Of a stretch of DNA of 64,000 nucleotides, positions 1-63,399 are shown piece after piece; positions within the stretch are counted from its first letter, which is position 1, and the number at the start of each line of letters is the position of its first letter. The notes beneath the pieces are model-generated. The model searched no databases. It had not been told where the DNA came from and was given only the letters and a program-made list of their open reading frames with translations. This DNA is from Eledone cirrhosa (lineage: Eukaryota): NCBI GenBank assembly GCA_964016885.1, contig OZ024741.1, positions 338,396,001 to 338,460,000 of the forward strand. Direction: 5' to 3'. The position numbers were made by a program, and so were the translations under genes.

Positions 1-282
1 CTAATTTAAGTTCACATGGTAAATGATGGTTAAAAGACTTAAAATACTCATGAAATGCTAAAAGTATCCCCCATTACATTACAAATACTTCTCAGATTCA
101 GAGAATATAAAATGCTGAGTCATGGCACCTGTCTCAAAGATTTATGCAGTTCTTAGAATTTCCTTAAAATAAATCCTTGTTGAAATATGGCAGTAGTGTA
201 CAACAATTAAAACAAACTGTTAGTTTATTGTGGATTACTGTATGTGTTGTATGTTCACTAAGAAAGAAAGGAAGAGAGAAAG

Positions 283-582
283 TGTGTGTGTGTAAGAGAG
301 AGGGAAATAAATAGAGAAAAAAGAAAGAGAGGGTGAATGGGAGAGAGAGAGAGAGAGAGAAAGAGACATAAAGAAAGAGAGGAGGAACGTAAGAGAGAGA
401 GAGAGAAAGAGACATAAAGAAAGAGAGGAGGAACGTAAGAGAGAGAGAGAGAAAGAGACATAAAGAAAGAGAGGAGGAACGTAAGAGAGAGAGAGAGAAA
501 GAGACATAAAGAAAGAGAGGAGGAACGTAAGAGAGAGAGAGAGAAAGAGACATAAAAAAGAGAGGGTGAATGGGAGAGAGAG
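283..582. repeat. GA-rich ~42-bp minisatellite (more units at 44160-44537)
   Basis: Unit GAGAAAGAGACATAAAGAAAGAGAGGAGGAACGTAAGAGAGA. Confidence 0.9.
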
Positions 583-608
583 AAATAGTGAAATAATGAT
601 ATATTTAC

Positions 609-788
609 TTGAAACACAGGCGACGTTGATTTTATAATCACAGGTTAAACTTTCAGGATTGAAATAAAGGCCATCATTACAATTCATCTCACGACGAAAA
701 AATCCGTTGGGTGTTGGTTCACACACAATGTACTTTTCACAACGGTAAGGATGCTTGCAAAAATAGGTATTTTGACAGCTGCAAAACT
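609..788 (-). CDS. Exon 2 (CBM14 domain 1), gene copy A; downstream exons lie outside the window
   Basis: Same splice sites as 44563-44742, with three substitutions. Confidence 0.92.
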
Positions 789-1851
789 CTAAAATGATAA
801 AAAGTAAATAATTTTCATAAACAGATAGATAAATATTGTCTATAATATTAGAAGAACCCCATGCATTGCCCACATTTCAAAATAGCAATCTACATTCTAG
901 GTTCAAATCCAGCCGAGGTTAAGCTTTGACTTTTATCCTTACAGATTCGTAAAAATAAATACCACTAATGCATTGGATTCGATTTTATTCAGTTTCTCCT
1001 CCTCCAAAAATTGTTAGCTTTGTACCTAAGTCAGAAAGAGCATATAGTTAGTAAGAAATTCTGAGGCATTTTTAATCTGATGCCCTAACACAACTCTATC
1101 AATTTGCCACACTAAAGCAAATGTTTATAAGTATCATTAGCTTCAGTTATTACTCTGTAATTACTATCTGTTATTACAGTTATTACTATCTGTTCTAAAA
1201 TTCTGAATTGTTGACTTAGAAGCAGGTCGACATATTTTGTTTAGGTGTAAGGTTGCTTGAATTGGTTTTTGAATATATTAAAGGTATTTATTTTATTCAT
1301 CTTCCAGAGAACTAAATAGCAAAGTTCTGTTACAATCACTGTTTGAGATTGAGGAATGACTGTACAATAGAAATGCTAACCAAACATGTGATGGTTGATC
1401 TTCTACTAGACTTGTGGGTTCATGCTCTCAGTAAAGACTGCAATAGTATTCAACATATTTCATTTTCAGAGTCCAGGATCAGTATGCCATATAAACCAGA
1501 ATTTCTGGGTATATGAACAATCATCAAATTTGAAAAATAGCAATTTGATAAATTAATGGTTTGCATAAGAGAACCCCTGTAGTTTATGTTGATTACTGAC
1601 ACATGGAAGTGATTAAAGATAAAAATGTTCATTTAAATAATTTTTTTTTAAAGATATAATTGCATAAATGTTCAGCATGTATATACAAATGACATACACA
1701 ATTAAATGTATTAGTAACTTTGGAGAAATAACTATTTACAGGGATAAGAAGCCAGGATCCTATGATTGAAAAGCAAACTTCTTATAGCAAAATGATTGAG
1801 ATAGGAAATGCATTGTGTGCATGTGTGTAAATTTTAAAGAGTTACAGACAA

Positions 1852-1933
<82 letters not shown>

Positions 1934-2025
1934 ACACATATATATATATACATATATATATATATACACATATATATATATACATATATATATATATACA
2001 CATATATATATATACATATATATAT

Positions 2026-2062
<37 letters not shown>

Positions 2063-2063
<1 letters not shown>

Positions 2064-5000
2064 ATAGAGCAGGAGAAATCGTAGAAATGCTAGAGCGAAA
2101 GGAAGTTGATGTATGCTGTGTGCAAGAGACTAGATGGAGAGGAGGGTCTGCTAGAGTCCTCGTAGGAAAAAGCCAGTGCTACAAATTTTTCTGGGTGGGA
2201 AATGACGATGGGATGGGTGGTGTAGGTATACTATTAGCTGACAAGTGGGTAGATAAAGTAATCTCAGTGTACAGGGTAAATGCAAGAATCATTAAACTCA
2301 GACTAGTCCTGAATAAGACAATTACCACAATAATATCAGCTTACGCACCCCAATCGGGGCTGCCAGACGAACTTAAGGATAGGTTTTACGAGTCCCTAAT
2401 ACACACTACTGCTCTAACAGACGACAAGGACTTCCTAATCATTGCAGGAGATTTTAACGGACACGTAGGTAAACACTGCGACGGCTTCAATAGAGTACAT
2501 GGAGGCCATGGAGTTGGCACAAGGAATGAGGAAGGATTCAGACTTCTAGAATTCTGCGACGCCAATGACATGTCGATATGTAACACAAACTTTAAAAAAC
2601 CCGACAACCACCTGATCACCTATAGATCAGGGGAGCACTCTAGTCAGTTAGATTTTATCCTCATCAGAGGACGTGACAGATGGACGGTCGTAAACACAAA
2701 AGCCTTCCCTAGTGAGGAATGTACATCCCAACATAGCTTAGTTGTCAGCGACCTCACGGTCAGAACTAGACGAGCCCTGAAACAGAGGCCAACCTGGAGA
2801 AGAAAGATCTGGAAGCTGAAAGTCCCCTCAACCAGTAACAGATTTAAAGATATTTTACTCAACGCCTACGACAGTAAAGAAGAACAGATAGAGACATTTA
2901 ACGTAGAAGAGAACTGGGAGTTCCTAAAAAATAACTTACTAGAGGCGACGGATGAGGTTTGTGGCTGGAGTAAGACCTCAAGCAGGAGGAGAGTGACTTG
3001 GTGGTGGAACAATAAGGTAGATGAAGCAGTCAAGGCCAAGAGACAGTCATGGAAAGAATGGAAGAACGGAGGGAGCAGGGTACATTACATAGAGACCAAG
3101 AGGGAAGCTAGGCGACAAGTATACTTAGCTAGGAGGGAAGCAGAGGATAGAAAATTCAAGCATGTTTTACAACGTGAGGACCAGAAACAGGAGGTATTCA
3201 AGATTGCGAGGCAGTGTGTCAGAGATAGTTGTGATGTCATTGGAGAGAAGTGTATCCGGAATGATAAAGGTGAGCTTGCCCTCACAAGTGCTGAGAAGAA
3301 AGATGCATGGAAGAGTCATTATGATAGATTACTAAATGAGGAGAATGCATGGGAAGAGGAGACCCTACCCCACGTAGACCCTATAGAGGGACCAGCAGTA
3401 CAAGTCAGCGGCAGCGTAGTAAGTAAGGCAATCAGAGATATGAAGATAGGGAAGGCAACCGGTCCATCGGGTATAGCTGCCGAGATGCTGAAGGCATCTG
3501 GGTCTGTAGATCACACTATAACCACACGTATCGTTAACCAGGTAATACTAGAGGGGGCCATACCAAAAGATTGGTGCAGTAGCATCATTGTCAACTGCTA
3601 CAAAGGTAAAGGCGATGCACTAGATAGAGGAAACTATAGAGGTATAAAGTTGATGGACCAGGTCATGAAAGTAACAGAAAGAGTTATAGCACAGCTGATT
3701 AGGGACCGGGTGAATATAGACGAGATGCAATTTGGGTTTGTACCAGGGAAAGGCACCACTGATGCCCTCTTCCTTGTGAGGCAATTACAGGAAAAGTACC
3801 TAGCTAAATGTAAGCCACTCTACTTGGCATTTGTCGACCTTGAGAAAGCCTTTGACAGAGTTCCACGTGCAGTAATCTGGTGGGCTCTTAGAAAACTAGG
3901 AGTAGATGAATGGCTTGTGAAAGCGGTACAAGCCATGTATAGGGGAGCAGTCAGCAAAGTTAGGATTGGCAATGAGTATAGCGAGGAATTTAGCGTACAG
4001 GTTGGGGTCCACCAGGGCTCTGTTCTTAGCCCTCTCCTGTTCATCATAGTCCTGCAGGCAATAACGGAGGAGTTTAAGACCGGATGCCCATGGGAACTCC
4101 TGTATGCTGATGACCTCGCACTCATAGCTGAATCTATGGTAGAACTAGAGAATAAATTCCAAACCTGGAAGCAGGGACTAGAGAGAAAGGGCCTCAAAGT
4201 CAACATGACAAAGACTAAGGTCCTTATAAGTAGACGAGAAAACAGAACCCAGATCCCCTCAGGGAAATGGCCTTGCTCAGTATGTAGGAAAGGTGTAGGT
4301 AGGAACTCCATTCTCTGCCCCAAATGCAAACAATGGGTACACAAGAGATGTAGCGGGATCTCAGGAAGCTTAATTAAGAATGTAGGATTCACATGCAGCA
4401 GCTGTGCTGAAACAGCAAGCAAACAGCCACAGGAAACAAGTACCACCAATCTCTGGGATGGCCCTGTAGAAACAGTAGACAGCTTCTGCTACCTAGGTGA
4501 CCGAATTAGCAACGGAGGTGGGTGCTCAGAAAGTACAATAACTAGGGTAAGAACGGGATGGAAGAAGTTTAGGGAACTACTACCACTGCTAGCTGCAAAA
4601 GGCTTCTCCCTCAGAATGAAAGGCAGACTGTATGATGCATGTATCCGAACAGCGATGTTGCATGGTAGTGAGACCTGGGCGTTGAAGGTGGAAGACTTAC
4701 GTAGATTAGAGAGAAACGAAGCCTGCATGCTCCGATGGATGTGTAACAGTAATATACGTGAACGACAAAGCATAAAGGAATTGAGAGAGAGACTGAGCAT
4801 AAGAGGAATCAAATGCTGCGTGCAGGAGAGGCGGTTACGCTGGTATGGACATGTGATGCGTATGAAGGATGACAGCTGCATAAAAAGGTGCAGAGCACTA
4901 GAAGTTGATGGAAACCGTGGAGTGGGGAGACCCAAGATGACTTGGGATGAGGTGATAAAAGCCGACCTTACCCAACTACACCTCTCAAAGTCAATGACAC

Positions 5001-5368
5001 ACGACCGTGACTTCTGGCGTCACGCAGTAATACAGGGTACCCGACCTCCCATGGGTACATGCTGAAGCATATAAACAATATGCCCCCCCCCCCCCCACCG
5101 CAAGGTGGCCGTGGAGGTGCCACGGCAAAAAAGCACCCAGCCCACACTGTAAAGTGGACGTGTAGGCGCCACGAAAAAGCACCCAGCACTCACTGTAAAT
5201 GAGGTTGGTGTTAGGAAGGGCATCCAGCTGTAGAAATCAAGCCAGATCAGTTCCTGTATGAGCAAGGCATGGTCAGCCGACCAGACACTGCCCACAACAG
5301 GACAACCCGTCTAACCCATGCTAGCGTGGAAGAACGGACGTAAAACGGTGATGATGATGATGATGATG

Positions 5369-5370
<2 letters not shown>
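2063..5370 (+). mobile_element. RTE-clade LINE, nearly full length, slightly 5'-truncated
   Basis: APE endonuclease motifs (VQETRW, AYAPQ, GDFNGH, LDF), RT motifs ([24 protein letters not shown]), RRLRWYGHV, (GAT)n tail; flanked by (TA)n. Confidence 0.95.
2087..5065 (+). CDS. RTE ORF: AP endonuclease + reverse transcriptase with PHD-like zinc finger (992 aa)
   Basis: Uninterrupted ORF with the motifs above. The first endonuclease motif appears to be lost at the 5' junction. Confidence 0.9.
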
Positions 5371-5407
<37 letters not shown>

Positions 5408-5411
5408 TATG

Positions 5412-8072
<2,661 letters not shown>

Positions 8073-8079
8073 TATATAC

Positions 8080-8162
<83 letters not shown>

Positions 8163-8167
8163 TGTAC

Positions 8168-8531
8168 CACATGGCTTAGTGGTTAGAATGGAGGCACATG
8201 GCTTAGTGGTTAGAGCATTGGCCTTGCAATCGAATGGTTGTGAGTTCAATTCTCAGACCGGGTGATGTGTTGTTTCCTTGAGCAAGACACTTATTTCACA
8301 TTGCTCCAGTTTACTCAGCTGTAGAAATGAGATGATAGGGACTGGCATCCACATCATTCCACTGCAAAGTGGTCGTGGAGGCGCCACGGCAAAAAAGCAC
8401 CCAGCACTCACTGTAAATGAGGTTGGTGTTAGGAAGGGCATCCAGCTGTAGAAATCAAGCCAGAATCAGTTCCCGTCCCACCCTTGCAAGCAGGGAAAAG
8501 CGGACGTAAAATGATGATGATGATGATGATG
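8168..8531 (+). mobile_element. tRNA-derived SINE with CORE-like centre and RTE-derived 3' end
   Basis: A box TGGCTTAGTGG (8199-8209), B box GAGTTCAATTC (8242-8252), CCTTGAGCAAGACACTT core-like motif. 8360-8465 is nearly identical to the RTE 3' UTR at about 5150-5250. (GAT)n tail. Confidence 0.85.
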
Positions 8532-8829
8532 ATATATATATATATATTATATATATATATAAAACGAAGGAAATATATATATATATATATATAACGAACG
8601 AAATATATATATACAAACACACATGATGTATTATTATGATTGATAGCCCATTTAGCATTGGAGCCCTATCGTATGGAGATATCTAGTTTAAAGATTGGAA
8701 GTTATCCATATATTTTCATGTACAAAAATGGAAGAAATAGAACAGGAGATGAAATAAAGGAGAGAAAAAAAGAGAATGATGAATGTTGAGAAAGAAGAAA
8801 TTATCTTCCTGAACAATCAAATCAAAATT

Positions 8830-9160
8830 ATCTTCCTGAACATTTCAGAGATCAGAGAGTCGTTCCAGGTAGAGCTGCTATTTCTCCAAATTGAGATCAT
8901 AGTTCCAGTACTATGGGCAATTTGGTTAGAATGTCTCAGGAAAGAATTGCTGGACAGATTTTACGGGCAAAACCAACCAGCAGGAAACCCAGGAGTAGAA
9001 GAAACCTGAATAAGATGGTTGGATAACATCCATGGGCTTTGCTGGTCTTGCTTGGTGGGATCTAATCAGATTAATTGTAGATGGTTGCATCTAATAGGAC
9101 CTGTTGGAATGAGTGTTTAAGGACTCTCTCAGGAATAAGTTGGCAAAGAAGAAGAAAAAG
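8830..9160 (+). mobile_element. 3' fragment of a second RTE family (also 52763-53093)
   Basis: Homologous to the reverse complement of 41630-41950. Confidence 0.7.
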
Positions 9161-9231
9161 AAAAATATTTATTAAGGAATTTAGAACAAACATTATTGTA
9201 ATCATAAATGAGAAAATACTGAGATACTTAC

Positions 9232-9313
9232 GGTCCAAGTTTTGACCAAATATCATCCCAATAGACAGCAAAAGACAGACCGCAAAAAGTTGTTGAGGGC
9301 CTTGCATTTTCAT
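9232..9313 (-). CDS. Exon 1 (signal peptide), gene copy A
   Basis: Identical to 53165-53246. Confidence 0.85.
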
Positions 9314-9363
9314 TGTGTTACAGAGTATTGCTATGTATGTACCTATATCTTCATGCAAAAGAG

Positions 9364-9397
9364 GATTGAAAGTCTGTCAAAATCTTGTATTTATATA
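9364..9397 (-). promoter_or_regulatory. Core promoter, copy A: TATATAAA plus Inr-like TCAATC
   Basis: TATA at 9397-9390. The A of TCAATC is at 9367, 30 nt from the first T and 54 nt upstream of the ATG. Confidence 0.65.
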
Positions 9398-9457
9398 GAA
9401 CAGAGCCTGTGAAAGTTACTATGCATGTGTATTTACACGTGTTTAGATTAGAAATAT

Positions 9458-9668
9458 TCATCATCGTCATCATCATCGCCATTGCCTTCGTCATCGTCAT
9501 CATCATCGCCATTGCCTTCGTCATCGTCATCATCATCGCCATTGCCTTCGTCATCGTCATCATCATCGCCATTGCCTTCGTCATCGTCATCATCATCATC
9601 GTCGTCGTCGTCATCGTCGTCATCGTCATCATCATCATCATCATCATCATCATCAATAATAATAATAT
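9458..9668. repeat. 30-bp CAT/CGT minisatellite grading into (CAT)n; one unit shorter in copy B (53391-53571)
   Basis: Unit CATCATCGCCATTGCCTTCGTCATCGTCAT. Confidence 0.9.
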
Positions 9669-10579
9669 TATGTGAGAAAGAAGGTGGAGCTAGTGCAAGT
9701 TTTGTCCGTCTCCCAGATCCTCCTACACCCTGACACATGTTTATTTGCAACGTATTAGAGCTAATATCTACATAAGCAACTAGGCATTTTTATTAAAGAA
9801 TTAATAAAAGGCTTTAATAAAACCACAAAGGTAATTGTTTGAAAAAATATTCTTATTTTTTTAAAAAAAGCTTTACATGTTTTTTATGTTCAATTTCTTT
9901 ATTTCTATTGCTTTAATTTCAAGATTATTTTATATATAAGAAATGAGAGAATTTTAATTTGAATAGAGAAATAAATAGCTTGATTGTGTTTTCAAGGACA
10001 GAAGACTAGTTATGAAAGTTGCATAAGCTAGAATATAAAAAGAAGAGACTAAATTATTCTCCCTTATCCACACCTTTGTGAATAAATTACTATCTCTTCA
10101 CAACAGAGTCTTTAATCACAAACCGGTTTAAACTCATTTTTATCCATTCACTCTTTTATACATTTCTGTTTCAATGAATTCATTCTGACAAAGACAACAA
10201 AAGTCTTTAAAAATATGAAGAAGGTGGTTCCTGTTTAACATGATAGCTTTTAGATAGATCATTACAAAAATACAAACTCTTCAGCGACGCTTAAGTCGTT
10301 TTTTGCTTTATTGCTTGTAAAATATATATATGTGTGTCATCTCCCTCTCCTTCATCTACAAAAAAATGAGAGTAGGATGTATAATTGTGTGACCTGGAGT
10401 CTGTTTAAAAGGAAAGATATTTGCTATACAATGTCAGGTTACTTAGTAAAAAAATGAATTTATTCGTAAATATTTCTTATAGGTTTACAAAACTGTGAAT
10501 TAAACTTCTCAAGGGAGACTACTAGTCTTTATTTTTATATTTTCCTTATAAGGATTTATTAAGTTTTCATAATTAATAC

Positions 10580-10765
10580 GGTGGATTGGCAGTATCGGTA
10601 GAGAGTCAGGCGCCATGCTTTGAAGCATGTAGTTACCTCCCTTTATGATCTGAGTTCAAATCCCGCCAAGGTTAACTTTGCCTTTCATCCTTACGGAGTC
10701 GATAAAATAAAGTACCAGTAATGCACTGATATAATTGCTGGCCTTGTGCCAAAAGTAGAAACAAT
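10580..10765 (+). mobile_element. SINE with conserved central domain (relics also at ~895-1030, 37075-37220 minus, 40390-40530, 40850-40940 and 54483-54668)
   Basis: TGGCAGTATCGG A-like box, GAGTTCAAATCC B box, then the shared GCCTTTCATCCTT..GGAGTCGATAAAATAAAGTACCAG motif in several dispersed copies. It resembles the Deu/Nin-type SINE domain (from recall). Confidence 0.75.
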
Positions 10766-12239
10766 AATTAATAATATAAATAATGAAAGAAGGGGGAAGG
10801 GGTAAAGAAGGGCAGATCTGGCTGTATAGGAGAGTAAAGGAAAGGACTAAAAATGCCATAAATGAGAAGAAAAGGAAGGAAAGAAGCTAGGACTATTAGG
10901 CCATGGAAGAAATAGAGGGGGAAGGGGAAAGGATGACAGGCCCTGCACCTAAGTTGGGGCAGTAAGGTCTAACCTCAAGGTTTCTGATGAAAGGGTTAAA
11001 GAAAAGTCAAATTTCTACCAGGAAGGATGACTGATCATCTTTAACATTTGACTCTATGTATGATTTCCTTAAGAATTATAGTTGTTTGCAATCCAATAGC
11101 TGTAAAACAGTTCAGATTTTTTCAGATGTTTGGAATATTTCTTGAACATATTTGGTTTTTAGGAAATGGATGAAGAGGAAGAGCATCATGGTTGACACTT
11201 TTAGGAAAAAATATTCACAAGGAAATGGATTACAGTTCTAAGAAGGAAAATTTAAGGGAAGGGTTTAGAGTGAGATCTGGCTGATATGTGATAAGAGGGA
11301 GAGAAAAGATGAATAGGATGTATAGAAGGAATGTATCTAGAGTTCAGAGCAACAGAGACCACTGTAATAGCAAAAACAGCATGCAAGACAGTAATTGAAG
11401 CATTTTAGTGGTTAACTCTTTGACAATTACTTCAATGGCTGTCTTTTCAATTAGTATATGCATCAGTAGATTTTGGTAGTACTCCAGTTTTCTTCTTCTT
11501 GCATTTCGGTTGGTCTCAGGTTGTTGTCATTTGCTTGATCAAGATCAGAGCTCAGTGACCAATTTCCAGAGCCCTCCACGAGGAGGTCAACAAATTTGAG
11601 CTCTAATACTCCAGTAAGGAGAAAGGTTCAGCTCCATCAGACTTAAAATACTCAAGACTCAATCGTGTTCCTATGAATCTATCAGGAGTTACAAATCCAT
11701 TCATAAATTCAGTACTCCAGTGATGTTCTTGAGTTTTATAGAGAATTAGCTAATGATCAGAGCTGAAATAATTGCTGACACTGAAGAGGACTCCTGGCCT
11801 TTCTGGTGCAGTTTTGCAATGTTATATGTGGAATCACCATAAGAGATAGTGATGGATTCAGAGGCCTAGCATTTATAATGACAGCAACTATGTGGGTTTT
11901 AATTGTGTTATTTATGACCAGATAGATTGAGATGCAAGACTGCCTCCTAAATTTATATGGGGATTAAATATTTGTTATCTTGCAAAAGACATGGTTGTCA
12001 TGTCCCTTGTGCATGCTTAACGCTCTTTCCTACATTCTTCTACACGCTACAGTCTTCTACACGCCACGCATCTCAACGTACATCCACTTACATCTCTCTC
12101 TCCACCACCGGATCTTGTTACCCGGAGATTTACCCATCTGCATTGTCGAGGCTTCCAAACGACTTAAAGAAATTTACCTTATTATTCCACAATGCTTCAA
12201 GCAAACTTCAATACTCTCATATATATATATATATATATA

Positions 12240-14760
12240 TATCAAAATGAAAATCCGAAGGCAAGGTAAAATTTCCAATCATTTTAATCACGACACATGT
12301 TTCAATCAGAGAACTTAGAAAAAGCTACTGAAAAACTACACGGGCCAACCTGGATTTAATCAACACGGAGGCCAATAGCGTCATGACTAAACTGGGTATT
12401 GAGGATAAAACCGAACCCTTCCACCCTAGAACTCCGAGGATTTTGTTGAAGCACCACAAATTAAACTTTGAATTATCAAGACCTGTCAGGCTGATAGCCC
12501 TTCGAAGTCGGACATAGGAATCATGAGTAAAAACATCCTTGATAAAATAATGCCCACTCTAGTTATGAGATCGAAGATTAAATTATGGTCAGGAACAGCG
12601 AGGTAATTAACTGGTTTGAGAAGTCGCAGAATAATAATAGCACTAAGTTTATACAGTTCGATATCTCTTAACTACTATTCTTCGATCTCTCCAACTCTTC
12701 TAGGTAGGGCCCTAAATTTTGCTAGCTTACACACCGACCTTACATCTGAAGAAATTAACATTATTCTCCTAGCTAGGAAAACCTTAATTGAGTCCAACGG
12801 TGACTTGTGGACCAGGAAGGATTGGCCGGACAATTTCGACATCACCATGGGATCCACGGACTCGGCCCAGGTGACGGATCTGGTGGGCCTTTACTTCCTC
12901 GACTGTCTCTCAGTGGAAATGCCCACTTGGGAGGCGGCGCTTACCGTGACGACGTTTTATTTACTGTGTCGTTCCGTAATAATAATATGGTAGAGAGGGT
13001 GAGGAAAAAACTAAGCAAATTCTTTAAGAACATAGACCTAAGTATAGTATTTGAAGAGAACTTAAAGATAGTTAATTTTCCAACCCTACCACAAACCCAA
13101 TGAGAATTTAAACTATGTCAACGCTAAATCGAACCACCCTAGAATAGTCACTAACGGTATTACTAAAAGTGTCTCTAGTAGAATTTCAGGACTATCGTCC
13201 AATGAAGATACCTTTAATAGGATCTCGAATTACTATAATAGCGCGGAGCATAGCGAGGGAATCTCATTCAAACGTCCATTAGATAGTAGTAGCAACATTG
13301 CCTGCTATAGCTTAGGCCAAAATAGTGACACTTCTGTTAACAGCAGGCGGGATACGAGGGAGTATCAATATAGACTTCATGTTGTATTGCCTCCTAGTCC
13401 CAATGGAAACAACCACCCAGGTACTAACACGGGGTCAGAGCACCGTAATGCCAGCGGAAACTCTAATTGTAACCTTAATTGTAGAACTGATAAAACGACC
13501 GTTGAACGTAAAATGGAACGAGGGTCGAGTAGAGGGAATAGGGATAAATGTAGTAGGTGCATAGTGGATTTAACCCCGGCTATCGATGGTAATCCAAATG
13601 GCTGCACGGGGGTACACCGCCCCGGACACTTGGGACGATTCCGAAAACAATCGGGACACCCCAGATCCACAGGCAGTTTTCAGTTATAATAGACCGGTAG
13701 CTACTAAGGAGACAGGTACCTCTAATATAGATAGTAAGAACAAGAGGCATCTGACCAGAAAAATCCTGTGGTATAACCCCCTTACTCCACTGGCCTGACC
13801 ACTAGTATAGCTAAGCTTTTCTTTAGGGCCTTAGACAAATGCTTCCCTAGATCACACAGATACTATAAAATATTCAATAGGAATACCATCAAACTGTCCT
13901 ACTCCACAACCAGTAACATAGCTCAGAATATAGCTAAGATGAATTATAGTAGACTTAGGACAGGGGGGGGGATGAGACATGACAGAACTAATGGCAGCTC
14001 TATGGATGAACGGACTCATACACGTGAGGCGAGTCAGGTCACACCAACACCTGAGAACTTACTCATAGAGCAGACAAGAACTGAGACCCGACCCCAAATG
14101 TACCGTGGCTCCTCTGGAACTACTCAGGTCGATAACAGAAAATGTAATTGCAGGAACACCGCCACTTGCCCCATGGCTGGGAAATGCCTCACCAAAAACA
14201 TAGTCTACGACTGCAAGGTCTCCACTCTTGATAGATCCTTCAGGTATGTTGGGGAAACTGCCACTGAATTTAAGGGTAGATGGTATAATCACCGCCATAC
14301 CTTTAATAGATTAGATAAAAAAAATAGCACGGCGCTTTCTGAATTAGTCTGCAAGCTTAAACAACAGATTGCTCAGCCCAGCCTTATAACGGCAGCACGG
14401 GCGTTTGTAATTTGTGTATAGCTGAAACCTTTAATATTATTAGAGGCGGCCCCCTATTAATCAATAGGAGAGCGGATTTTTTCAGCAACTGCCAACATAG
14501 AACCTCGAAAACTTTCCGCAGGATTTTTGGGAAGTAACCTACCACTAACTCCTCCCTCTCTACCTTAGCCATAGAGTTCTCTCAATTAGCGAAAAAACAG
14601 ACAATCACACACTCAGGTAGTTAGACAGCTAAGATCGTTTGCGCACTTACAAACAGTACTCGGCCTGTCTCCACAGAGTTTTCACAGATGAGTGCACTTT
14701 AGAATACCTAGTTAGTAATTAGTTAGATTGATTACACACTCAGAATACCTAGTTAGTAAA
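12240..14760 (+). mobile_element. Decayed Penelope-like retroelement (RT + GIY-YIG)
   Basis: Frameshifted fragments: MGSTDSAQVTDLVGLYFL, YRDD, KILWYNP, CNC...CP..GKC..KNIVY...YVGETATEFKGRWYNH. Confidence 0.88.
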
Positions 14761-15706
14761 CGATGATGACATCTTCTTTATTATTGTTCCCGTCTGCCGT
14801 GGGCACAAAGGTGGCTGTGGAGACCGATCCTTGACTTGCAGGTCCGGGGACAGTGGAGACAGGGGAAGAGACCGGAGTCAGACTGGTAACTCCCAGAGGT
14901 TACCTCCCCTGTTACCTCCACCTCTCGCCCATCGCTGCAGGGCTTTGGGAGTGCACGCTAAAGAAGAAACCTGTGCGGGAAAGGGTTATAGTGGGAGGGC
15001 CAGTGTACATTGACGGTCCCACTCACTCGGCCGCAGAAGCCAGAATCCGGTGGTACGGAGGACCGTCACGACCATGGACTTCCTTGGCTGCAGTGGATGG
15101 CCACGACGTCTGTACTGCCTTGCCATGCCCTAGCGCTCCACACCGCTTGCTGTCGCCGCCTTTGTGACCGTTGGGACGATGTTGTCCTCCTCCACTCATT
15201 CCGCCAGGTCCAGTCTTCGCATGCAGGGGCAGACATCCCCTATCTAACAGACCCGTCCGGCTATCCTCAACCTGGTTCTGCCCGTCAGCCAAGGCGGTTT
15301 ACCGGGGTGTGGCCGCTGTCGCATTCTACAGCTTCTTGGGGCCACAGGTGAGAGCTGAGTGTCAGGTGGGACCCAATGCAGGACGAGCTGTCCTGAAAAG
15401 GGAATGGCTAGCCCTCCCTACAGAGGTACATGCCCCTCCCTGACACCCTAAGCATATACATATACATACGTGCATGTGTATATACATATTTACACAATTT
15501 TGGATGGCCGTAGACTCTTATGAGTTCTTCCACCCTTTGTCAGGTTTTGTTTTTTTGTCCTGCAGGGTGTCCAAAATCCCCCTCCTCACCAAGTAAACTT
15601 GGTGGGGTTGCCAGTTTAGTAGCTGACAACCCGACCATGCGACAGGTTGTACTAGTTTACATGTTACCAGTAGCACTCAAGAGTGACCTGGCATATATAT
15701 ATATAC

Positions 15707-15769
<63 letters not shown>

Positions 15770-16172
15770 TTATTTCCTCCTATCTTTATTTATTTCTTTC
15801 TTCTCTCCATACATTTCTCTCTCTCTCCGATATTTCTCCAGGTTTTCTTTCTTTCTATCTTTCTTTCTCTCTCTCCGTCTTTGTTCTTTTCTCTCTCTCC
15901 GTCTTTTTTCGTTTTTCTTTTTCTTTATCTCCGTCTTTTTCTAATTGTGCTTAACACTATGACTTATTAAAACAATATAAACAATTCACTATCCAGACAG
16001 CCTCCAAAAGTAATGGTTGTATTTTAAAAGGGTACGTCAAAGCTATTTGTAAAACTGTTATATATTGTATTTTGTCTGATGAAGGCATACCATAATTTAA
16101 TATGGTATCCCTGAAATATGTATAATGAAATAAATATGGTTTTATAAATATAGTTTCCATTTATTAATATCG

Positions 16173-16280
<108 letters not shown>

Positions 16281-16554
16281 GGAATAGAATGAAACGAAAT
16301 TTCATTTCTCACTCTTAGTACGGCACTTACTTAAATGTAAGTATGTATGTATACGTACATACATATATGTATACAGACGTACAGTAGCATGTATATATAT
16401 ACATACAGGCACACATATATACATGCACGTATCAGTTTACCAAACATTTATTATAATGCTCGGTTTGTTCGTTTGTAAACAAACAAACAGCCTGAATTAA
16501 GCCGTACAGTGTTTAGGCAACCACGTCACCTTTTTGTTCAACACTGACACAGGA

Positions 16555-16597
16555 ACGATGTACTGGTTTCAAGCTTATTAGCTATCGTCAGCACCGT
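16555..16597 (-). ncRNA. Type I hammerhead ribozyme (family 2; CCAG stem III variant; duplicate at 60412-60454)
   Basis: ACGGTG-CTGACGA-T-AGCT-AATA-AGCT-T-GAAA-CCAG-TA-CATCGT. Confidence 0.75.
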
Positions 16598-17297
16598 ATA
16601 CCTTTCTGCCAGATGGTTGAACGTCCGAAAGTATATACTTTCTTATGAAAATTAACGGCTGAGCAGCCTAATTTGCATATCGAGTGAGTTCAGTCGGCCA
16701 GTCGCACCGAAGACGATAAATGGAATAGAATAAAACGAACTTTCATTTCTCACTCTTAGTACGGCACTTACTTAAATGTAAGTATGTATGTATACGTACA
16801 TACATATATGTATACAGACGTACAGTAGCATGTATATATATACATACAGGCACACATATATACATGCACGTATCAGTTTACCGAACATTTATTATAATGC
16901 TCGGTTTGTTCGTTTGTAAACAAACAAACAGCCTGAATTACGGCGTACAGTGTTTAGGCAACCACGTCACCTTTTTGTTCAACACTGAACAAACCGAGCA
17001 TTATAATAAATGTTCGGTAAACTGATACGTGCATGTATATATGTGTGCCTGTATGTATATATATACATGCTACTGTACGTCTGTATACATATATGTATGT
17101 ACGTATACATACTTACATTTAAGTAAGTGCCGTACTAAGAGTGAGAAATGAAATTTCGTTTCATTCTATTCCATTTATCGTTTTCGGTGCGACTGGCCGA
17201 CTGAACTCACTCGATATGCAAATTAGGCTGCTCAGCCGTTAATTTTCATAAGGAAAGTATATACTTTCGGACGTTCAACCATCTGGCAGAAAGGTAT

Positions 17298-17340
17298 ACG
17301 GTGCTGACGATAGCTAATAAGCTTGAAACTAGTACATCGT
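17298..17340 (+). ncRNA. Type I hammerhead ribozyme (family 2; duplicate at 61155-61197)
   Basis: ACGGTG-CTGACGA-T-AGCT-AATA-AGCT-T-GAAA-CTAG-TA-CATCGT. Full core, stem I 6 bp with extension, palindromic stem III, GUA site. Confidence 0.85.
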
Positions 17341-17766
17341 TCCTGTGTCAGTGTTGAACAAAAAGGTGACGTGGTTGCCTAAACACTGTACGGCGTAATT
17401 CAGGCTGTTTGTTTGTTTACAAACAAACAAACCGAGCATTATAATAAATGTTCGGTAAACTGATACGTGCATGTATATATGTGTGCCTGTATGTATATAT
17501 ATACATGCTACTGTACGTCTGTATACATATATGTATGTACGTATACATACATACTTACATATATATATATATATATACATATTATATATATATATATATA
17601 TATATAAATTGGAATAAATGCTCTGAAATAGCGATATATATGTGAATATAGACATAGAATATTCGAAAATATTCTGTATGTTTATAATAAACATTTTGAA
17701 GACCTAATCGCTATAGAATAGAATACGTCACGTATTACAATTAGATTCTCGATAAAAGCAAGGGAA

Positions 17767-17809
17767 GTAATCTACGCGTTTCATTCTTGTTAGAAATCAT
17801 CAGGACTAC
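17767..17809 (-). ncRNA. Type I hammerhead ribozyme (family 1, inverted unit; duplicate at 61624-61666)
   Basis: Exact reverse complement of 18221-18263. Confidence 0.88.
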
Positions 17810-18220
17810 ATATCCAGTGCTTTTATCGAGAATGACACAGCTAGAGACTTATAGAATACTTAGCTGTGTACAGGAACTGGATAAAAGCACTGGATATGTA
17901 GTCCTGATGATTTCTAACAAGAATTTCTAACAAGAATGAAACGCGTAGATTACTTCCCTTGCTTTTATCGAGAATCTAATTGTAATACGTGACGTATTCT
18001 ATTCTATAGCGATTAGGTCTTCAAAATGTTTATTATAAACATACAGAATATTTTCGAATATTCTATGTCTATATTCACATATATATCGCTATTTCAGAGC
18101 ATTTATTCCAATTTCTAATTTCTGCCGGACCGGCAACCGCTCTTTCAAACCAGTTCCTGTACACAGCTAAGTATTCTATAAGTCTCTAGCTGTGTCATTC
18201 TCGATAAAAGCACTGGATAT

Positions 18221-18263
18221 GTAGTCCTGATGATTTCTAACAAGAATGAAACGCGTAGATTAC
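18221..18263 (+). ncRNA. Type I hammerhead ribozyme (family 1)
   Basis: GTAGTC-CTGATGA-T-TTCT-AACA-AGAA-T-GAAA-CGCG-TA-GATTAC. Stem I continues past an internal loop into ATTCTCGATAAAAGCA/TGCTTTTATCGAGAAT. Confidence 0.9.
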
Positions 18264-18385
18264 TTCCCTTGCTTTTATCGAGAATCTAATTGTAATACGT
18301 GACGTATTCTATTCTATAGCGATTAGGTCTTCAAAATGTTTATTATAAACATACAGAATATTTTCGAATATTCTATGTCTATATT

Positions 18386-18544
<159 letters not shown>

Positions 18545-18561
18545 TATATATATATATATAC

Positions 18562-18631
<70 letters not shown>

Positions 18632-18734
18632 TTAAAACAACAGAATGCAAGACAATTTGGTGCATCATCGTTTACCAACCAGAACAACCAGTTCTACTCG
18701 TTGCTAAACAACCTAATATAGATTATATATATAT

Positions 18735-19697
18735 ATATATATATATAATCTATTGATGAACATTACGTTCATCAATACAACCCCTAGAGGTGAATTAGCT
18801 TACAAATTTAGAAGGGCCCGAGATAAACATAAACTCAATATTAAGATAGTAGAAAGACCAGGTACCTCCATAAAAACACTTATTAGCAATACATACCCTT
18901 TTCAAAGACCTCCCTGTATAGATAAGAAATGAATAATCTGTAAACTAAGCCCTCATATTAACTGTAAAACTAGAAATGTAGTATATAGCATAAGATGTAC
19001 TGAAGGACAATGTAAAGATAAGAATATAGTGTACATAGGTGAGACAGCTCGTAGTATAAGAGAACGGTTAAATGAACACTGGCGAGAACTTCAAGATAAA
19101 AAATAACCAACATGCTAAAAAGCATCAACATGCTAAAATAGAACATAAGGGCAAATTAGAGAACATAGAAATGAAAATAGAATCTACACACAGAAAAGAC
19201 GCAATGTTTAGACAAATCACAGAGGCAATAAACATAAATGAACTCCAACCAAATTAAATAGAAAATATGAATGGAATAGCAACATCACAACTTACAATTA
19301 AGGACAAAATGAAAACACACACACACACATAGAACAAACAACCAACCAGTAACATTTAAATAAACAAATAAATAAACAAATAAAAACACACGCAGACACC
19401 CGGATGTAACACATGCGTAAACTAAGCACACAACACACACAAAAACAAGATGGCGTAGGACAGAACAAAGGAGAGGCACAAAACAAAGAAAAAATCCCCA
19501 GTCACTGAAGAGGTCACAGAATGTATGACGAAAGAACTTTGACAATATATGAACAACCGTCCGGTTATGGAACCAACAAACTAACCGGAAATTTATAAAT
19601 TCTTAAATTTATAAATTTAATTTATAATAAATTGGAGTGAAAGCAACTGGTGCGTGTGTTTCTTATTGGCGACATGACCCTCCCAAAGCATAACAAT
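18735..19697 (+). mobile_element. 5'-truncated Penelope-like element (GIY-YIG part + pLTR); partial duplicate at 63500-64000
   Basis: NCKTRNVVYSIRC...C....IVYIGETARSIRER and RQITEAINI motifs, followed by an A/C-rich 3' region with a hammerhead-like motif. Confidence 0.85.
19501..19543 (+). ncRNA. Minimal hammerhead-like motif in Penelope pLTR
   Basis: GTCA-CTGAAGA-G-GTCA-(9 nt)-TGAC-GAAA-GAAC-TT-TGAC. Confidence 0.55.
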
Positions 19698-20318
19698 ATA
19701 TATATATATATATATACAGTGGCGGACTGGACAGGTTGCCAGGTTGCCCAATGACAAAAATAAAAAAAAATTAAGTAAAGCAATTAGTTAACGAATTCCC
19801 CAGGGAATTAATAGAAACCAAAATATACGATAGTGTAAATAGCTGGAATCAATGGTTGTACATTCTACTAAATCTAAAGCTTAGAAAATCTATTCCTGAG
19901 TCCAACCATTCTCGTTGCTGTGGTAATGCGGCTGGACTGCCGATCGCTATATTTGATTTGCTAAGCTGTCTAAACGTATTGTTATTACTCTGGGGTACTA
20001 TTCCCATTCGAGTGCTAAAGCTACATACCGAATTTGCATTCGTTAGCTTGGCCGCAAACAAAGGCTTCGTTAATGCTGTACTAAAATTTGTATATATATA
20101 TATATACTTGAGGGCGGCCGACCGGGGTAGAAGCTGCTAAATGTTCGGTCGCCCTCATGTCTCTGATTTTCAGCCCCATGAATTGTGTCTATTATATTCC
20201 TTTGTTATATTTCGAATACCTGATGATGTCACCGGATTCATACTGAACCCAGTCATTGAAATGATCATAGTATAATAAACCTTTTAAGGAATTACACCAG
20301 TCCAGCCTCCTGTTATTT

Positions 20319-20353
<35 letters not shown>

Positions 20354-20357
<4 letters not shown>

Positions 20358-21130
20358 CACAAGTATGACCCCGACGGCAGAGCTCAAGCCGTTTCGACGG
20401 CTATTTCTGGATTATTTTTGTATTAGTATTTTTCTATTAATATTTTTGTATTAATATTTTGTATTAGTATTTTTGTAGTAGTATTTTAGTATTTTTCTTC
20501 TCAACTTATTAACCTGTCATTGTAAGATAGCATTGGCTGATTACTAACTAACTATAGCAGTGATGTTAGACCCCCTGTAAAGCCGGCTTTAATTCTTTCA
20601 CTACAATCTCGTATTTAGTATTTTTCCCACTCTCCACCTATTAAACTTTTCTATAGCTTAGCAATACCAAAGAGAAACTGGGTGATTGTGGAAATGGAGT
20701 AGTAACCAGAAATTGTTTTTTATATATTTATTTCCTTATTCTTCTATTGGGCTTTTTTTACTCCCTTTCAATTTACCTATTCTTTCAACCACCTCTTCTT
20801 CTCCAGTACACTTTTTTCGACCTTTTATACACTATCCTTAGAATCTGCTGTATAGATTTCTCTTTCAACGCTTGACTGGGTTTCCCCCACTCCCTCTTTG
20901 TTCTACCGGCAAGTTCAGCCACCCCTACCTCCCACCAAATGCCATGATAGATTCATCTGTCTTTACAACAAATGTTTGACCAATCCTCTTGACAATTACT
21001 ATCTTCCCATATAAGGAAATACCCCCTGAGAAGTTCGGCTATTTATTTACCAGGCTAAAAATTCTTATTTAGTCCAGAAATAGCTGTCGAAACGGCTTGA
21101 GCTCTGCCGACGGGGTCATACTTGTTCCTA
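20354..21130. mobile_element. Element bounded by ~57-bp inverted repeats (probable PLE relic with inverted pLTR; related copy at ~30470-30600)
   Basis: 20354-20411 is nearly the reverse complement of 21072-21130. Inserted in (TA)n. Confidence 0.55.
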
Positions 21131-22269
21131 TTACCCACTCTACTACCCTAAGTATTGAGTACTTTGGTGTGTTATGGTCCATCTGGTTCCTTACCACAAT
21201 TCCTTCGTTATATATATATAAGAAAGTAAGTTCATAGAATCAATTGATAAAATATATACAGTATTTCTTCTCCCAATCAGCATAATCAACCACATAAAAA
21301 ATCAATTAAACGAGGCTATAAGTTTAAAATGTACCTATGAAGAAACAATAGATAAATAAATGATACCTATTTTATCCGCGATCCACAGCCACAGAAAATT
21401 TACCGAGTATTTCTAATAGCCCGTAGAAATTGACTAGACATATAGTTAACCATACACAATTCGGTACAAAATCAAAGTTAGAAGAAAAAAATGTACATAA
21501 ACATACCAAAATCATGTTTCTACCTCCGAAGGTTTCATTCGCTTTTTGGAAATATCCGATCATGGATAAATCAACGAGTTTCGAAATCATCAGGAAACAA
21601 ACTCAATTGGACAAAGATTTTTCTTAAATGATCCCCGCCAGAAACGAATTCAAAATGGCTAAGAATTGTCACATGGCTAGTAGTCAAGTCAGAAAGCTTG
21701 TGATTGGTGCCTGACGGCGAGTAGGCTGGTTGCTAGAAAGCGCAGCCGAATACTGCCTAAAGTTTTATTCAACCTTACGAGAGTATATAAAATATAGAGG
21801 TTTACATATACATAAACTAGACAGAGCCATAGATATATGTCTAGTTTATGTACACTATGTGGACTATGTATTGAAGAACGGATAAATATTCTAAGGAAAT
21901 TACGCAATAGCGATTGCCTAAATTCAAGGAATGAAATCTTCTCACGTTGTCCACACGTCTGGAAACATCTCTTGCATAACTACAAGCTCTAGATTGAATA
22001 ACAGCAACATTTAATATTCTAATCAACTTATTCCGGACATTCACAGTTATCTCCCTTACACCTTACGCCCGTGGTTTTGTATCGCTTGGGTGAAGTGACC
22101 GTTTCTGCGCATGCGCGTTCATACGGTTGTTTTTCCTGTTCCGTATAACCATTACCAGTCCGAGCTGAAGATCCGCATAAGGTGAAACAATAGTTCTCGG
22201 TATGGTGAACTAACTGTCGTGTTACTAGTTCTACCAAACTTACTTCTTTTTTCAGCAAACAAAGGGAGA

Positions 22270-22317
22270 TAAGCTGACAGATCTCTGTTTCGTACTGTTG
22301 GTACTCCTCAGAGCTTA
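22270..22317 (-). ncRNA. Canonical type I hammerhead ribozyme with GUC site (family 4)
   Basis: TAAGCT-CTGAGGA-GTAC-CAACA-GTAC-GAAA-CAGAGATCTG-TC-AGCTTA. Stem I is extended by CAGCAAACAAAGGGAG/CTCCCTTTGTTTGCTG. Confidence 0.92.
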
Positions 22318-22564
22318 CCACTCCCTTTGTTTGCTGAAAAAAGAAGTAAGTGACATAGTCTTCAAAATGCTTTTAATTAAGCATACAGTGTATTGCAAAA
22401 TACACTATATATACATTCATATATATATATCGCTATTTCAGAGCACCAATTCTAATTTTCAATTTTTGCTGGACCGGCAACAGTTCTGTATAATCAGTTC
22501 CTCATTATTACTGGAATTCTATAAGAATCCAACGTTCATAATTTTCAGCAAACAAAGGGAGTGG

Positions 22565-22603
22565 TAAGCTCTGAGGAGTACGAAACAGATATCTGTCAGC
22601 TTA
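22565..22603 (+). ncRNA. Family 4 hammerhead with 9-nt deletion in stem-loop II
   Basis: TAAGCT-CTGAGGA-GTAC-GAAA-CAGATATCTG-TC-AGCTTA. Confidence 0.6.
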
Positions 22604-22738
22604 TCTCCCTTTGTTTGCTGAAAAAAGAAGTAAGTGACATAGTCACTACTTTAAAACAATAGCGTAAGGTCTTCAAAATGCTTTTAATTAAGCATACAGT
22701 GTATTGTAAAATACACTATATATACATTCATATATATA

Positions 22739-25143
<2,405 letters not shown>

Positions 25144-34521: not shown

Positions 34522-53246
<18,725 letters not shown>

Positions 53247-53296
53247 TGTGTTACAGAGTATTGCTATGTATGTACCTATATCTTCATGCAAAAGAG

Positions 53297-53330
53297 GATT
53301 GAAAGTCTGTCAAAATCTTGTATTTATATA
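53297..53330 (-). promoter_or_regulatory. Core promoter, copy B: TATATAAA plus Inr-like TCAATC
   Basis: Identical to copy A. Confidence 0.65.
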
Positions 53331-58662: not shown

Positions 58663-59608
58663 CGATGATGACATCTTCTTTATTATTGTTCCCGTCTGCC
58701 GTGGGCACAAAGGTGGCTGTGGAGACCGATCCTTGACTTGCAGGTCCGGGGACAGTGGAGACAGGGGAAGAGACCGGAGTCAGACTGGTAACTCCCAGAG
58801 GTTACCTCCCCTGTTACCTCCACCTCTCGCCCATCGCTGCAGGGCTTTGGGAGTGCACGCTAAAGAAGAAACCTGTGCGGGAAAGGGTTATAGTGGGAGG
58901 GCCAGTGTACATTGACGGTCCCACTCACTCGGCCGCAGAAGCCAGAATCCGGTGGTACGGAGGACCGTCACGACCATGGACTTCCTTGGCTGCAGTGGAT
59001 GGCCACGACGTCTGTACTGCCTTGCCATGCCCTAGCGCTCCACACCGCTTGCTGTCGCCGCCTTTGTGACCGTTGGGACGATGTTGTCCTCCTCCACTCA
59101 TTCCGCCAGGTCCAGTCTTCGCATGCAGGGGCAGACATCCCCTATCTAACAGACCCGTCCGGCTATCCTCAACCTGGTTCGGCCCGTCAGCCAAGGCGGT
59201 TTACCGGGGTGTGGCCGCTGTCGCATTCTACAGCTTCTTGGGGCCACAGGTGAGAGCTGAGTGTCAGGTGGGACCCAATGCAGGACGAGCTGTCCTGAAA
59301 AGGGAATGGCTAGCCCTCCCTACAGAGGTACATGCCCCTCCCTGACACCCTAAGCATATACATATACATACGTGCATGTGTATATACATATTTACACAAT
59401 TTTGGATGGCCGTAGACTCTTATGAGTTCTTCCACCCTTTGTCAGGTTTTGTTTTTTTGTCCTGCAGGGTGTCCAAAATCCCCCTCCTCACCAAGTAAAC
59501 TTGGTGGGGTTGCCAGTTTAGTAGCTGACAACCCGACCATGCGACAGGTTGTACTAGTTTACATGTTACCAGTAGCACTCAAGAGTGACCTGGCATATAT
59601 ATATATAC

Positions 59609-59661
<53 letters not shown>

Positions 59662-60064: not shown

Positions 60065-60134
<70 letters not shown>

Positions 60135-60137
<3 letters not shown>

Positions 60138-61422: not shown

Positions 61423-61462
61423 TATATATATATACATATTATATATATATATATATATATAT

Positions 61463-63312
<1,850 letters not shown>

Positions 63313-63329
63313 TATATATATATATATAC

Positions 63330-63399
<70 letters not shown>

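What the first reader, a model, noticed from the sequence alone, without database searches (positions are those of the whole stretch)
22358..22485. Unnamed structured domain shared by two retrozyme-like families with different hammerheads
Seen: family 4 (22358-22485) and family 1 (18017-18140) align outside the ribozyme. Both have GTCTTCAAAATG, hairpin 1 (ATGCTT..AAGCAT versus ATGTTT..AAACAT), hairpin 2 (AGTGTATT-GCAA-AATACACT, with GTAA in the copy near 22700, versus AGAATATT-TTCG-AATATTCT), an invariant TATATATCGCTATTTCAGAGCA, and TGC[C/T]GGACCGGCAAC. Stem changes are compensatory and the loops swap between GNRA and UUCG tetraloop classes. Inference: a selected RNA module, perhaps for PLE RT recognition, transcription or circularisation. 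I cannot match it to any known motif.
Basis: partly seen in the sequence, partly recalled or inferred. Interest (0 to 1): 0.82.

Follow-up and report, generated by a model that had tools for sequence, protein, structure and literature searches.

The report
Pseudoknotted RNA handle of octopus retrozymes
Three families of hammerhead-bearing repeats in an octopus-like genome share a predicted RNA fold with a pseudoknot, most copies end at one of two points inside it, and it is likely the handle that a Penelope-type reverse transcriptase grips to start copying them.

Summary
Families 1 and 4 are two of six subfamilies of one ~310-bp hammerhead retrozyme lineage (16,183 exact core matches in the genome). 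The shared ~140-nt block changes 2-3 times more slowly than the hammerhead arm. It folds into two adjacent closed loops (P1, P2) joined by a 5-bp pseudoknot. A covariance model found two distant lineages (D, and family 2 of this window) with the same fold, and the pseudoknot is kept through paired changes. 182 of 236 mapped 3' ends fall at two points inside the module, one per loop, mostly running into (TA)n. Of 44 inverted insertions with both ends at these points, all 44 use one of each. That is the Penelope-like element (PLE) 'tail', shown in vitro for a lizard PLE to lie between two internal reverse-transcription starts. Best reading: the RT-binding and initiation element of non-autonomous PLEs. 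No match in Rfam or the paper library. The partner PLE, expression and binding are not shown. The tetraloop swap and the invariant TA run are not general features.

The parts
18004..18145 (+). Complete module in family 1 (P1 loop plus P2 loop)
   Evidence: covariance model hit 154.7 bits; further copies at 61861, 62171, 62481, 62791
18006..18092 (+). P1: 6-bp helix (18006-18011 with 18087-18092) closing the first loop
   Evidence: RNAalifold; pairs in all four families tabulated; positions counted
18016..18020 (+). 5' strand of the predicted pseudoknot
   Evidence: invariant in 15 of 15 rows; two double changes in lineage D
18026..18042 (+). Hairpin 1 (dispensable: deleted in subfamily D2)
   Evidence: one double change reached through a U-G step; absent from 37 of 38 D modules
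18045..18064 (+). Hairpin 2, 8 bp
   Evidence: 5 of 8 pairs change on both sides in alignment A4
18077..18086 (+). End site 1: about 10 nt just 5' of the 3' strand of P1, in or next to the loop of a small third hairpin in most subfamilies
   Evidence: 104 of 236 3' ends; hairpin in folds, absent in subfamily A
18095..18144 (+). P2: 5-6-bp helix (18095-18100 with 18139-18144) closing the second loop
   Evidence: three double changes in D
18102..18122 (+). Unpaired 21-nt AU-rich linker holding end site 2 (near 18111); site 1 to site 2 is the 25-35-nt tail
   Evidence: 78 of 236 3' ends; spacer 21 nt in all 100 listed matches
18123..18135 (+). P3 hairpin; its 5-nt loop (18127-18131) is the 3' strand of the pseudoknot
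18197..18285 (+). Long hairpin arm carrying the type I hammerhead of family 1 (core from 18227, predicted cut after 18257)
   Evidence: weak Rfam HH9 match E 0.035 on the duplicate
17603..17880 (-). Inverted arm of the family 1 insertion, ending with the tail (site 2) in (TA)n
17881..18396 (+). Direct arm of the family 1 insertion, ending at site 1 in (TA)n 18389-18628
22358..22488 (+). Family 4 module of the finding; lacks the 5' strand of P1 at a junction
   Evidence: 138.2 bits
22541..22625 (+). Family 4 hammerhead arm (core from 22571; helix II shortened in this copy compared with the inverted copy at 22311)
22659..22739 (+). Start of a second family 4 module, ending at site 1 in a short TA run
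22238..22340 (-). Inverted piece of the family 4 insertion (hammerhead arm only)
61780..63183 (+). 4.5 identical 310-bp family 1 units in the duplicated copy of this locus
16682..16948 (-). Family 2 retrozyme (about 440-bp unit): a whole module of the same architecture with a long insert between hairpin 2 and the site-1 hairpin
   Evidence: positions read
17129..17212 (+). Family 2: 3' strand of P1, P2 and P3 of the direct arm (next unit's P1 5' strand at 17388-17394, pseudoknot strand 17401-17405, hammerhead core 17304)
18760..19700 (+). Broken 3' fragment of an autonomous-type Neptune PLE (GIY-YIG endonuclease, hammerhead at 19505, end in (TA)n); a neighbour, without this module

Best explanation
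The block is a predicted pseudoknotted RNA fold at the end of non-autonomous Penelope-like elements (hammerhead retrozymes), and it is likely the site that a PLE reverse transcriptase-endonuclease binds in order to start copying. Shown in sequence: two helix-closed loops side by side, each holding one of the two points where genomic copies end; the ends run into (TA)n; inverted insertions carry one end of each kind. Inferred: tandem arrays are transcribed, the hammerhead cuts them to ~310-nt monomers that may circularise, a PLE protein supplied in trans binds the module, nicks both strands of a (TA)n tract and primes one cDNA at site 1 and the other at site 2 on the same RNA. The two cDNAs run round the circle or multimer (tandem units) and join head to head. 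The pseudoknot would hold the two loops, and so the two start sites, in a fixed geometry for a two-active-site (dimeric) enzyme. The module is under tighter constraint than the hammerhead arm because protein contacts need sequence as well as shape.
For: End mapping over 175 loci: 104 + 78 of 236 distinct 3' ends lie in two windows covering 15% of the unit, against 48 of 249 5' ends; (TA)n at 92 of 104 and 71 of 78 of them. Head-to-head insertions: 44 with one end of each kind, 0 with two alike, 27 with at least one end elsewhere (n = 71); independent choice would give about half mixed. The same two-site pattern at the same structural positions in lineage D (24 and 17 ends; 8 of 11 loci mixed) and family 2 (30 and 34; 15 of 16 mixed). 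[quoted passage not shown] Conservation: 91 of 127 module columns share the majority letter across six subfamilies against 36 of 108 in the hammerhead arm. Structure: 6 of 19 pairs with double changes on a MAFFT-only alignment with D, 1 of 500 shuffles. The pseudoknot, entered when only invariant columns were in hand, shows two double changes in D (25 of 38 copies carry the fully paired form) and a different 5-bp pairing in family 2 (chance 0.016, 0.03, 0.084). G-U pairs sit on the hammerhead-sense strand in P3, the pseudoknot and both hairpins. Neptune PLEs of this genome also end at two sites in (TA)n.
Against: No autonomous PLE carrying the module was found in Nep-1, Nep-2, Nep-3, one Hydra family or 50 further GIY-YIG loci, nor among 15 + 98 pattern hits chosen to leave the known lineage. 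The ends of Nep-1 to Nep-3 do not fit the model, so the partner may read a different-looking RNA, or was not sampled. P1, P2, P3 and the pseudoknot are nearly invariant inside the main lineage and give no covariation there. Three D loci and one family 2 locus were classed with two like ends (some look like deletions or diverged copies, not checked one by one). PMC11167929 saw no difference in start site between the two strands, which does not by itself predict strict one-of-each use. Antisense strands fold as well or better by energy in 4 of 5 copies. Loci were chosen by queries that need the module, and family 2 was aligned by helix, not by sequence.
Confidence: 0.7

Rival explanations
1. The fold is real but serves the RNA's life outside reverse transcription (ligation to circles, stability, export or host-protein binding); the RT merely starts at the two unpaired AU stretches that can pair with a (TA)n primer.
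For: Both sites are unpaired or loop sequences ending in AU; autonomous Neptune ends have two sites without this fold; only hammerhead-bearing non-coding repeats carry the module so far.
Against: Other AU-rich unpaired stretches of the unit are hardly used as ends; both sites keep their places relative to P1 and P2 in three lineages with different sequences; strict one-of-each use suggests fixed geometry.
Confidence: 0.13
2. The block is conserved as DNA: an internal promoter (TATA-like run, initiator, fixed spacing to a downstream element) that drives transcription of the arrays.
For: 21-nt spacer in all 100 listed matches; PLE pLTRs carry promoter motifs (PMC3846280, PMC2377424 passages); conserved promoter domains in newt satellite 2 (recalled).
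Against: The TA run is absent from subfamilies A and B; D and family 2 keep the pairings but not the letters; G-U pairs and a pseudoknot point to RNA; the linker is longer in D and family 2.
Confidence: 0.06
3. The module is an unknown self-cleaving or self-processing ribozyme that makes the RNA 3' ends at the two sites.
For: Compact pseudoknotted fold with invariant unpaired residues, as in small ribozymes; sits in elements that already use one ribozyme.
Against: Two sites 25-35 nt apart in different loops, site 1 spread over about 10 nt; no Rfam ribozyme match; topology differs from HDV, twister and pistol folds (recalled); internal initiation without cleavage explains the same ends in PMC11167929.
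Confidence: 0.05
4. No special function: relatives share the block by descent, and the stem changes come from template-switch repair of inverted repeats.
For: Families 1 and 4 are one lineage; within it only 3 double changes, all in local hairpins.
Against: 2-3 times slower change than the ribozyme arm; long-range P1, P2 and pseudoknot pairs covary in D and family 2; a U-G intermediate precedes the C-G pair of hairpin 1 on the tree; ends map inside the block.
Confidence: 0.04

Closest known systems
Metazoan non-LTR retrozymes (PMC7229834; bioRxiv 10.64898/2026.07.22.740005)
   Same: Non-coding tandem units of about 310-440 bp, AT-rich, one type I hammerhead per unit, dispersed in thousands of places, proposed to be moved by PLEs.
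   Different: In the parts read, neither paper covers cephalopods, maps ends, or describes a conserved structured module besides the hammerhead; here the ends themselves give the PLE signature.
PLE tail and internal RT initiation of Poseidon PAc (PMC11167929); tail on one end only (Craig et al. 2021; PMC3846280)
   Same: Two start sites about 30-40 nt apart, AT-rich target, inverted insertions, tail on one end.
   Different: PAc starts in an AC-rich stem-loop inside the ORF; no conserved fold, covariation or pseudoknot is described there, and the element is autonomous.
Ends of the Neptune PLEs of this genome (Nep-1, -2, -3)
   Same: Two end sites, (TA)n flanks; in Nep-1 site 1 lies 9 nt before the 3' strand of a closing helix and site 2 in the loop of an adjacent helix.
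   Different: No sequence or model match; tails of about 58, 45 and 36 nt; Nep-1 and Nep-2 sites lie in the start of the ORF; no pseudoknot seen.
3' stem-loops shared by LINEs and their SINEs; central domains of SINE superfamilies (recalled; PMC4758252 seen in listing only)
   Same: A conserved RNA piece shared by several non-autonomous families, read by a borrowed RT.
   Different: No tRNA head, no A-rich 3' end; copying starts inside the RNA at two sites.
Telomerase RNA template/pseudoknot domain (recalled)
   Same: A helix-closed loop holding the copied single strand, plus a pseudoknot, for an RT of the telomerase-related clade.
   Different: No Rfam match; two start sites and no repeated template; the pseudoknot links two separate loops. 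An analogy only.

Membership tests
Non-LTR retrozyme | Type I hammerhead core in each unit | tested here: met
   Rfam HH9 only weak (E 0.035)
Non-LTR retrozyme | Tandem units of 150-1000 bp, at least two | tested here: met
   310-bp units, arrays of many copies; D about 323 bp
Non-LTR retrozyme | No protein coding, no LTR | tested here: met
   no ORF of note in the units; the AUG before hairpin 1 opens different frames in different subfamilies and is deleted in D2 (read)
Non-LTR retrozyme | Self-cleavage and circular RNA in vivo | not testable with these tools
   no RNA holder listed; contigs cannot tell circle from tandem
Non-autonomous Penelope-like element | [quoted passage not shown] | tested here: met
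   44 mixed, 0 like pairs; tail 25-35 nt
Non-autonomous Penelope-like element | Partial tandem plus inverted 5'-truncated copy | tested here: met
Non-autonomous Penelope-like element | (TA)n target as in Neptune, Naiad and Hydra of octopus | tested here: met
   163 of 182 ends at the two sites; targets listed in the Craig supplement
Non-autonomous Penelope-like element | Sequence kinship with the pLTR of an autonomous partner | tested here: inconclusive
   not found in the families sampled; Naiad not searched in the genome
Described Rfam RNA family | Match at gathering score | tested here: not met
   (only generic hairpin matches far below their gathering scores)
tRNA-derived SINE with a shared central domain | tRNA-like head | tested here: not met
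   0 genes in 16000-23000; Ceph/Meta/V domains not compared by sequence
Telomerase RNA | Template copied repeatedly; TERT binding | not testable with these tools
   no Rfam match; whether flanking (TA)n is target or partly synthesised was not resolved

The most novel reading that the evidence does not exclude
The module is the first structural view of how a telomerase-related reverse transcriptase of Penelope elements holds its RNA: a pseudoknot clamps two loops so that a dimeric enzyme primes both strands of the target from one RNA, one at each site, which would explain tail, inversion and tandem copies in one mechanism and may be a cousin of the template/pseudoknot core of telomerase RNA, present in PLE RNAs well beyond octopus.
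Probability: 0.2. Interest if true: 0.88.

Novelty: new variant of a known kind. Interest (0 to 1): 0.66.

Why it matters
How PLE reverse transcriptases pick their RNA, and which machinery moves animal retrozymes, are open questions. This gives a 140-nt element with a covariation-backed fold, two mapped start sites and natural variants (hairpin 1 deleted, long insert, swapped pseudoknot) that can go straight into the existing in vitro PLE assay. The strict one-of-each use of the two sites is a countable constraint on the integration mechanism. The model can also be used to find such elements in other animals.

Tried and rejected
Rfam at gathering score and by E-value: nothing for the module. 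Paper searches: no description found; three motif strings absent from the Craig supplement (long runs are cut and line breaks can hide a match). Metagenome scan: 0. Earlier scan notes: nothing. Sequencing runs: no RNA holder listed; six runs of unknown kind under four organism labels hold family 1; three give one collapsed 340-nt contig, and X2 shows loose ends at both sites but may be the assembly's own sample. Retained-intron idea (donor-like site after the hammerhead arm, acceptor-like site between P1 and P2, as in Nep-1): no skipping joint, weak donor in family 1, not kept in family 2; unsupported. Short-ORF idea: frames differ, AUG lost in D2; rejected. Partner search: four protein queries and one Pfam query of the genome and two exclusion patterns found no ORF joined to the module; chimeric junctions were too rare to name a partner (4 of 108). 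A descriptor scan of 648 kb recovered the main and D modules, missed family 2, gave about 25 single background hits and a recurrent antisense hit in the Nep-3 3' region resting on a CA-repeat helix; it had no shuffled control. A filter for antisense echoes of the hammerhead arm removed nothing, so some 'other' ends are such echoes. One search timed out after its BLAST part.

Full report
OBSERVATION. The block is present as described. 22358-22502 aligns to 18017-18158 at 77%, and the two units are colinear over their full 310-311 bp, with a type I hammerhead at the same place. A pattern made of the two best-kept motifs has 8,277 + 7,906 exact matches in the 3.0-Gb genome and 0 in the reversed control. 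The genome is octopus-like by inference: the best protein match of one of its PLEs is an Octopus vulgaris record at 67%. The window holds a ~44-kb duplication, so family 1 appears twice.

ONE LINEAGE. Excluding the family 1 and 4 letters after the core gave 87 matches of older subfamilies. A tree of 59 natural units joins them all. Clustering 124 units gave six groups of three or more (110 units; 14 left out). Across these, 91 of 127 module columns keep one majority letter against 36 of 108 in the hammerhead arm; families 1 and 4 differ at 21% and 53% of columns in the two regions. Family 1 is young (mean difference 2.7%), the others 7-9%.

STRUCTURE. RNAalifold on 19 copies gives P1 closing a loop with hairpins 1 and 2, then P2 closing a loop with a 21-nt unpaired linker and hairpin P3. 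One change passes through a U-G step in copies basal to family 4. I noticed that an invariant strand after P1 is complementary to the invariant P3 loop and entered it as a pseudoknot; all five pairs were invariant, hence untested. A covariance model run over 507 kb then found, besides the lineage itself, hits at 39 and 37 bits in locus L120 and weaker ones at family 2 of this window. L120 is a separate retrozyme, lineage D (about 323-bp units, own hammerhead, 2,245 candidates). On a MAFFT-only alignment of six main-lineage and four D copies, 6 of 19 counted pairs change on both sides, 5 of 8 in hairpin 2 (1 of 500 shuffles; P2 and P3 were out of register and not counted there). By helix, D keeps P1, P2 (three double changes), P3 and the pseudoknot (U-A to C-G and C-G to U-A); 25 of 38 D copies carry the fully paired pseudoknot, the rest single changes or parsing misses. 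Subfamily D2 has lost hairpin 1. Family 2 (1,391 candidates) has the same order of helices with unrelated letters and a long insert; its P3 loop pairs with the strand after P1 over 5 bp, and the window's variant shows a further G-C to A-U change with one mismatch. Chance of such a 5-bp match at any register is 0.016, 0.03 and 0.084 for the three lineages. Sense strands have the better folding z-score in 3 of 5 copies, but not the better energy; the G-U pairs are the stronger argument for the sense RNA.

ENDS. Insertions are tandem arrays with an inverted part. In 60 loci, 18 ends stopped just before the 3' strand of P1 and 18 about 25 nt after it. With an HMM over 175 loci, 104 and 78 of 236 distinct 3' ends fall at these two sites, against 38 and 10 of 249 5' ends; 163 of the 182 run into (TA)n. 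Of 71 head-to-head insertions, 44 have one end at each site, none has two alike, and 27 have an end elsewhere. With independent choice about 49% would be mixed, so 44 of 44 has odds near 1e-14 (my arithmetic). D and family 2 end at the same structural positions, with 8 of 11 and 15 of 16 loci mixed. Site 1 lies in or beside the loop of a small hairpin in B, family 4, D and family 2, but subfamily A lacks that hairpin.

WHAT IS KNOWN. PMC11167929 (parts 1-2 of 4 read) shows that a PLE protein cuts AT-rich DNA on both strands, starts reverse transcription inside its RNA at two sites in a stem-loop, and that the genomic tail is the stretch between them; a dimer is predicted. Craig et al. (passages; supplement searched) describe the tail on one end and (TA)n targeting, with octopus Naiad and Hydra families. 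bioRxiv 10.64898/2026.07.22.740005 (parts 1-3 of 5) argues that animal retrozymes are non-autonomous PLE derivatives; its bioRxiv supplements are closed and could bear on novelty, though it samples vertebrates, insects and a coral. PMC7229834 (passages and Discussion), PMC4209133, PMC3846280 and PMC2377424 (passages) give background. None of the text seen describes this module; ten searches and Rfam found no description. Dfam, Repbase and closed journals were not searchable.

PARTNER. Three Neptune families and one Hydra family were examined, plus 50 loci around GIY-YIG matches that fall into several further families. The Neptunes end at two sites in microsatellites, and Nep-1 places them in the loops of two adjacent helices, but none matches the model; strong model hits in those loci were nested retrozyme copies. 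The partner is therefore unnamed. For the 30 short loci the element's end may lie outside the 3.3 kb held.

MECHANISM AND VERDICT. Shown: the fold's covariation, the slow change, two end sites inside the module, strict mixing of ends, (TA)n flanks. Taken from the literature: that such ends are RT start sites. Inferred: transcription, hammerhead cutting, circles, protein binding to the module, and a dimer copying one RNA from both sites with the pseudoknot fixing their spacing. The elements are new members of a known kind; the module is an undescribed, well-supported RNA motif whose job class (template recognition by a borrowed RT) is known, hence a new variant. Interest 0.66.

Noticed in passing
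L065, L073, L007, L024 and others: The hammerhead core pair C3-G8 is replaced by U3-A8 in subfamily A and, separately on the tree, in part of family 4: a repeated compensatory change in the catalytic core, suggesting selection for cleavage.
   Followed up: partly
L216-L223: A young Neptune-like PLE family with many intact ~777-aa RT-endonuclease frames, an upstream ORF and a long microsatellite-rich 3' region; one end site often runs into (TC)n before (TA)n. No typical hammerhead was looked for. A good candidate for in vitro work.
   Followed up: partly
window 18760-19700; L095-L128, L144-L185: Nep-1 and Nep-2 have the start codon just before end site 1, so their tails lie in the ORF start, with a conserved splice-donor-like motif shortly upstream.
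   Followed up: partly
window 1-19500 and 44000-64000: A ~44-kb segment is repeated at least four times in tandem on contig C2; the family 1 array has about 1.6 units in one copy and 4.5 in the next, so arrays also grow or shrink in place (or are mis-assembled).
   Followed up: no
L389:509-616: A lone 5' half of a D-like module with a longer hairpin 2 (31 bits): probably a further old sublineage.
   Followed up: no
L133, L136, L141: Subfamily C of the main lineage, with a longer hairpin after P2 and the U3-A8 hammerhead core.
   Followed up: no
L017, L281, L267: Family 2 or lineage D sequence joined directly to main-lineage copies without (TA)n between, possibly template switches between retrozyme RNAs using the same enzyme.
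   Followed up: partly
window 20356-21210 and 12600-16150: Other PLE-derived pieces: an inverted-repeat element ending in (TA)n and a broken Hydra-type element with a minimal hammerhead at 16076.
   Followed up: no
The family 1 unit is held almost word for word by runs under four different organism labels; kind and origin unknown.
   Followed up: no
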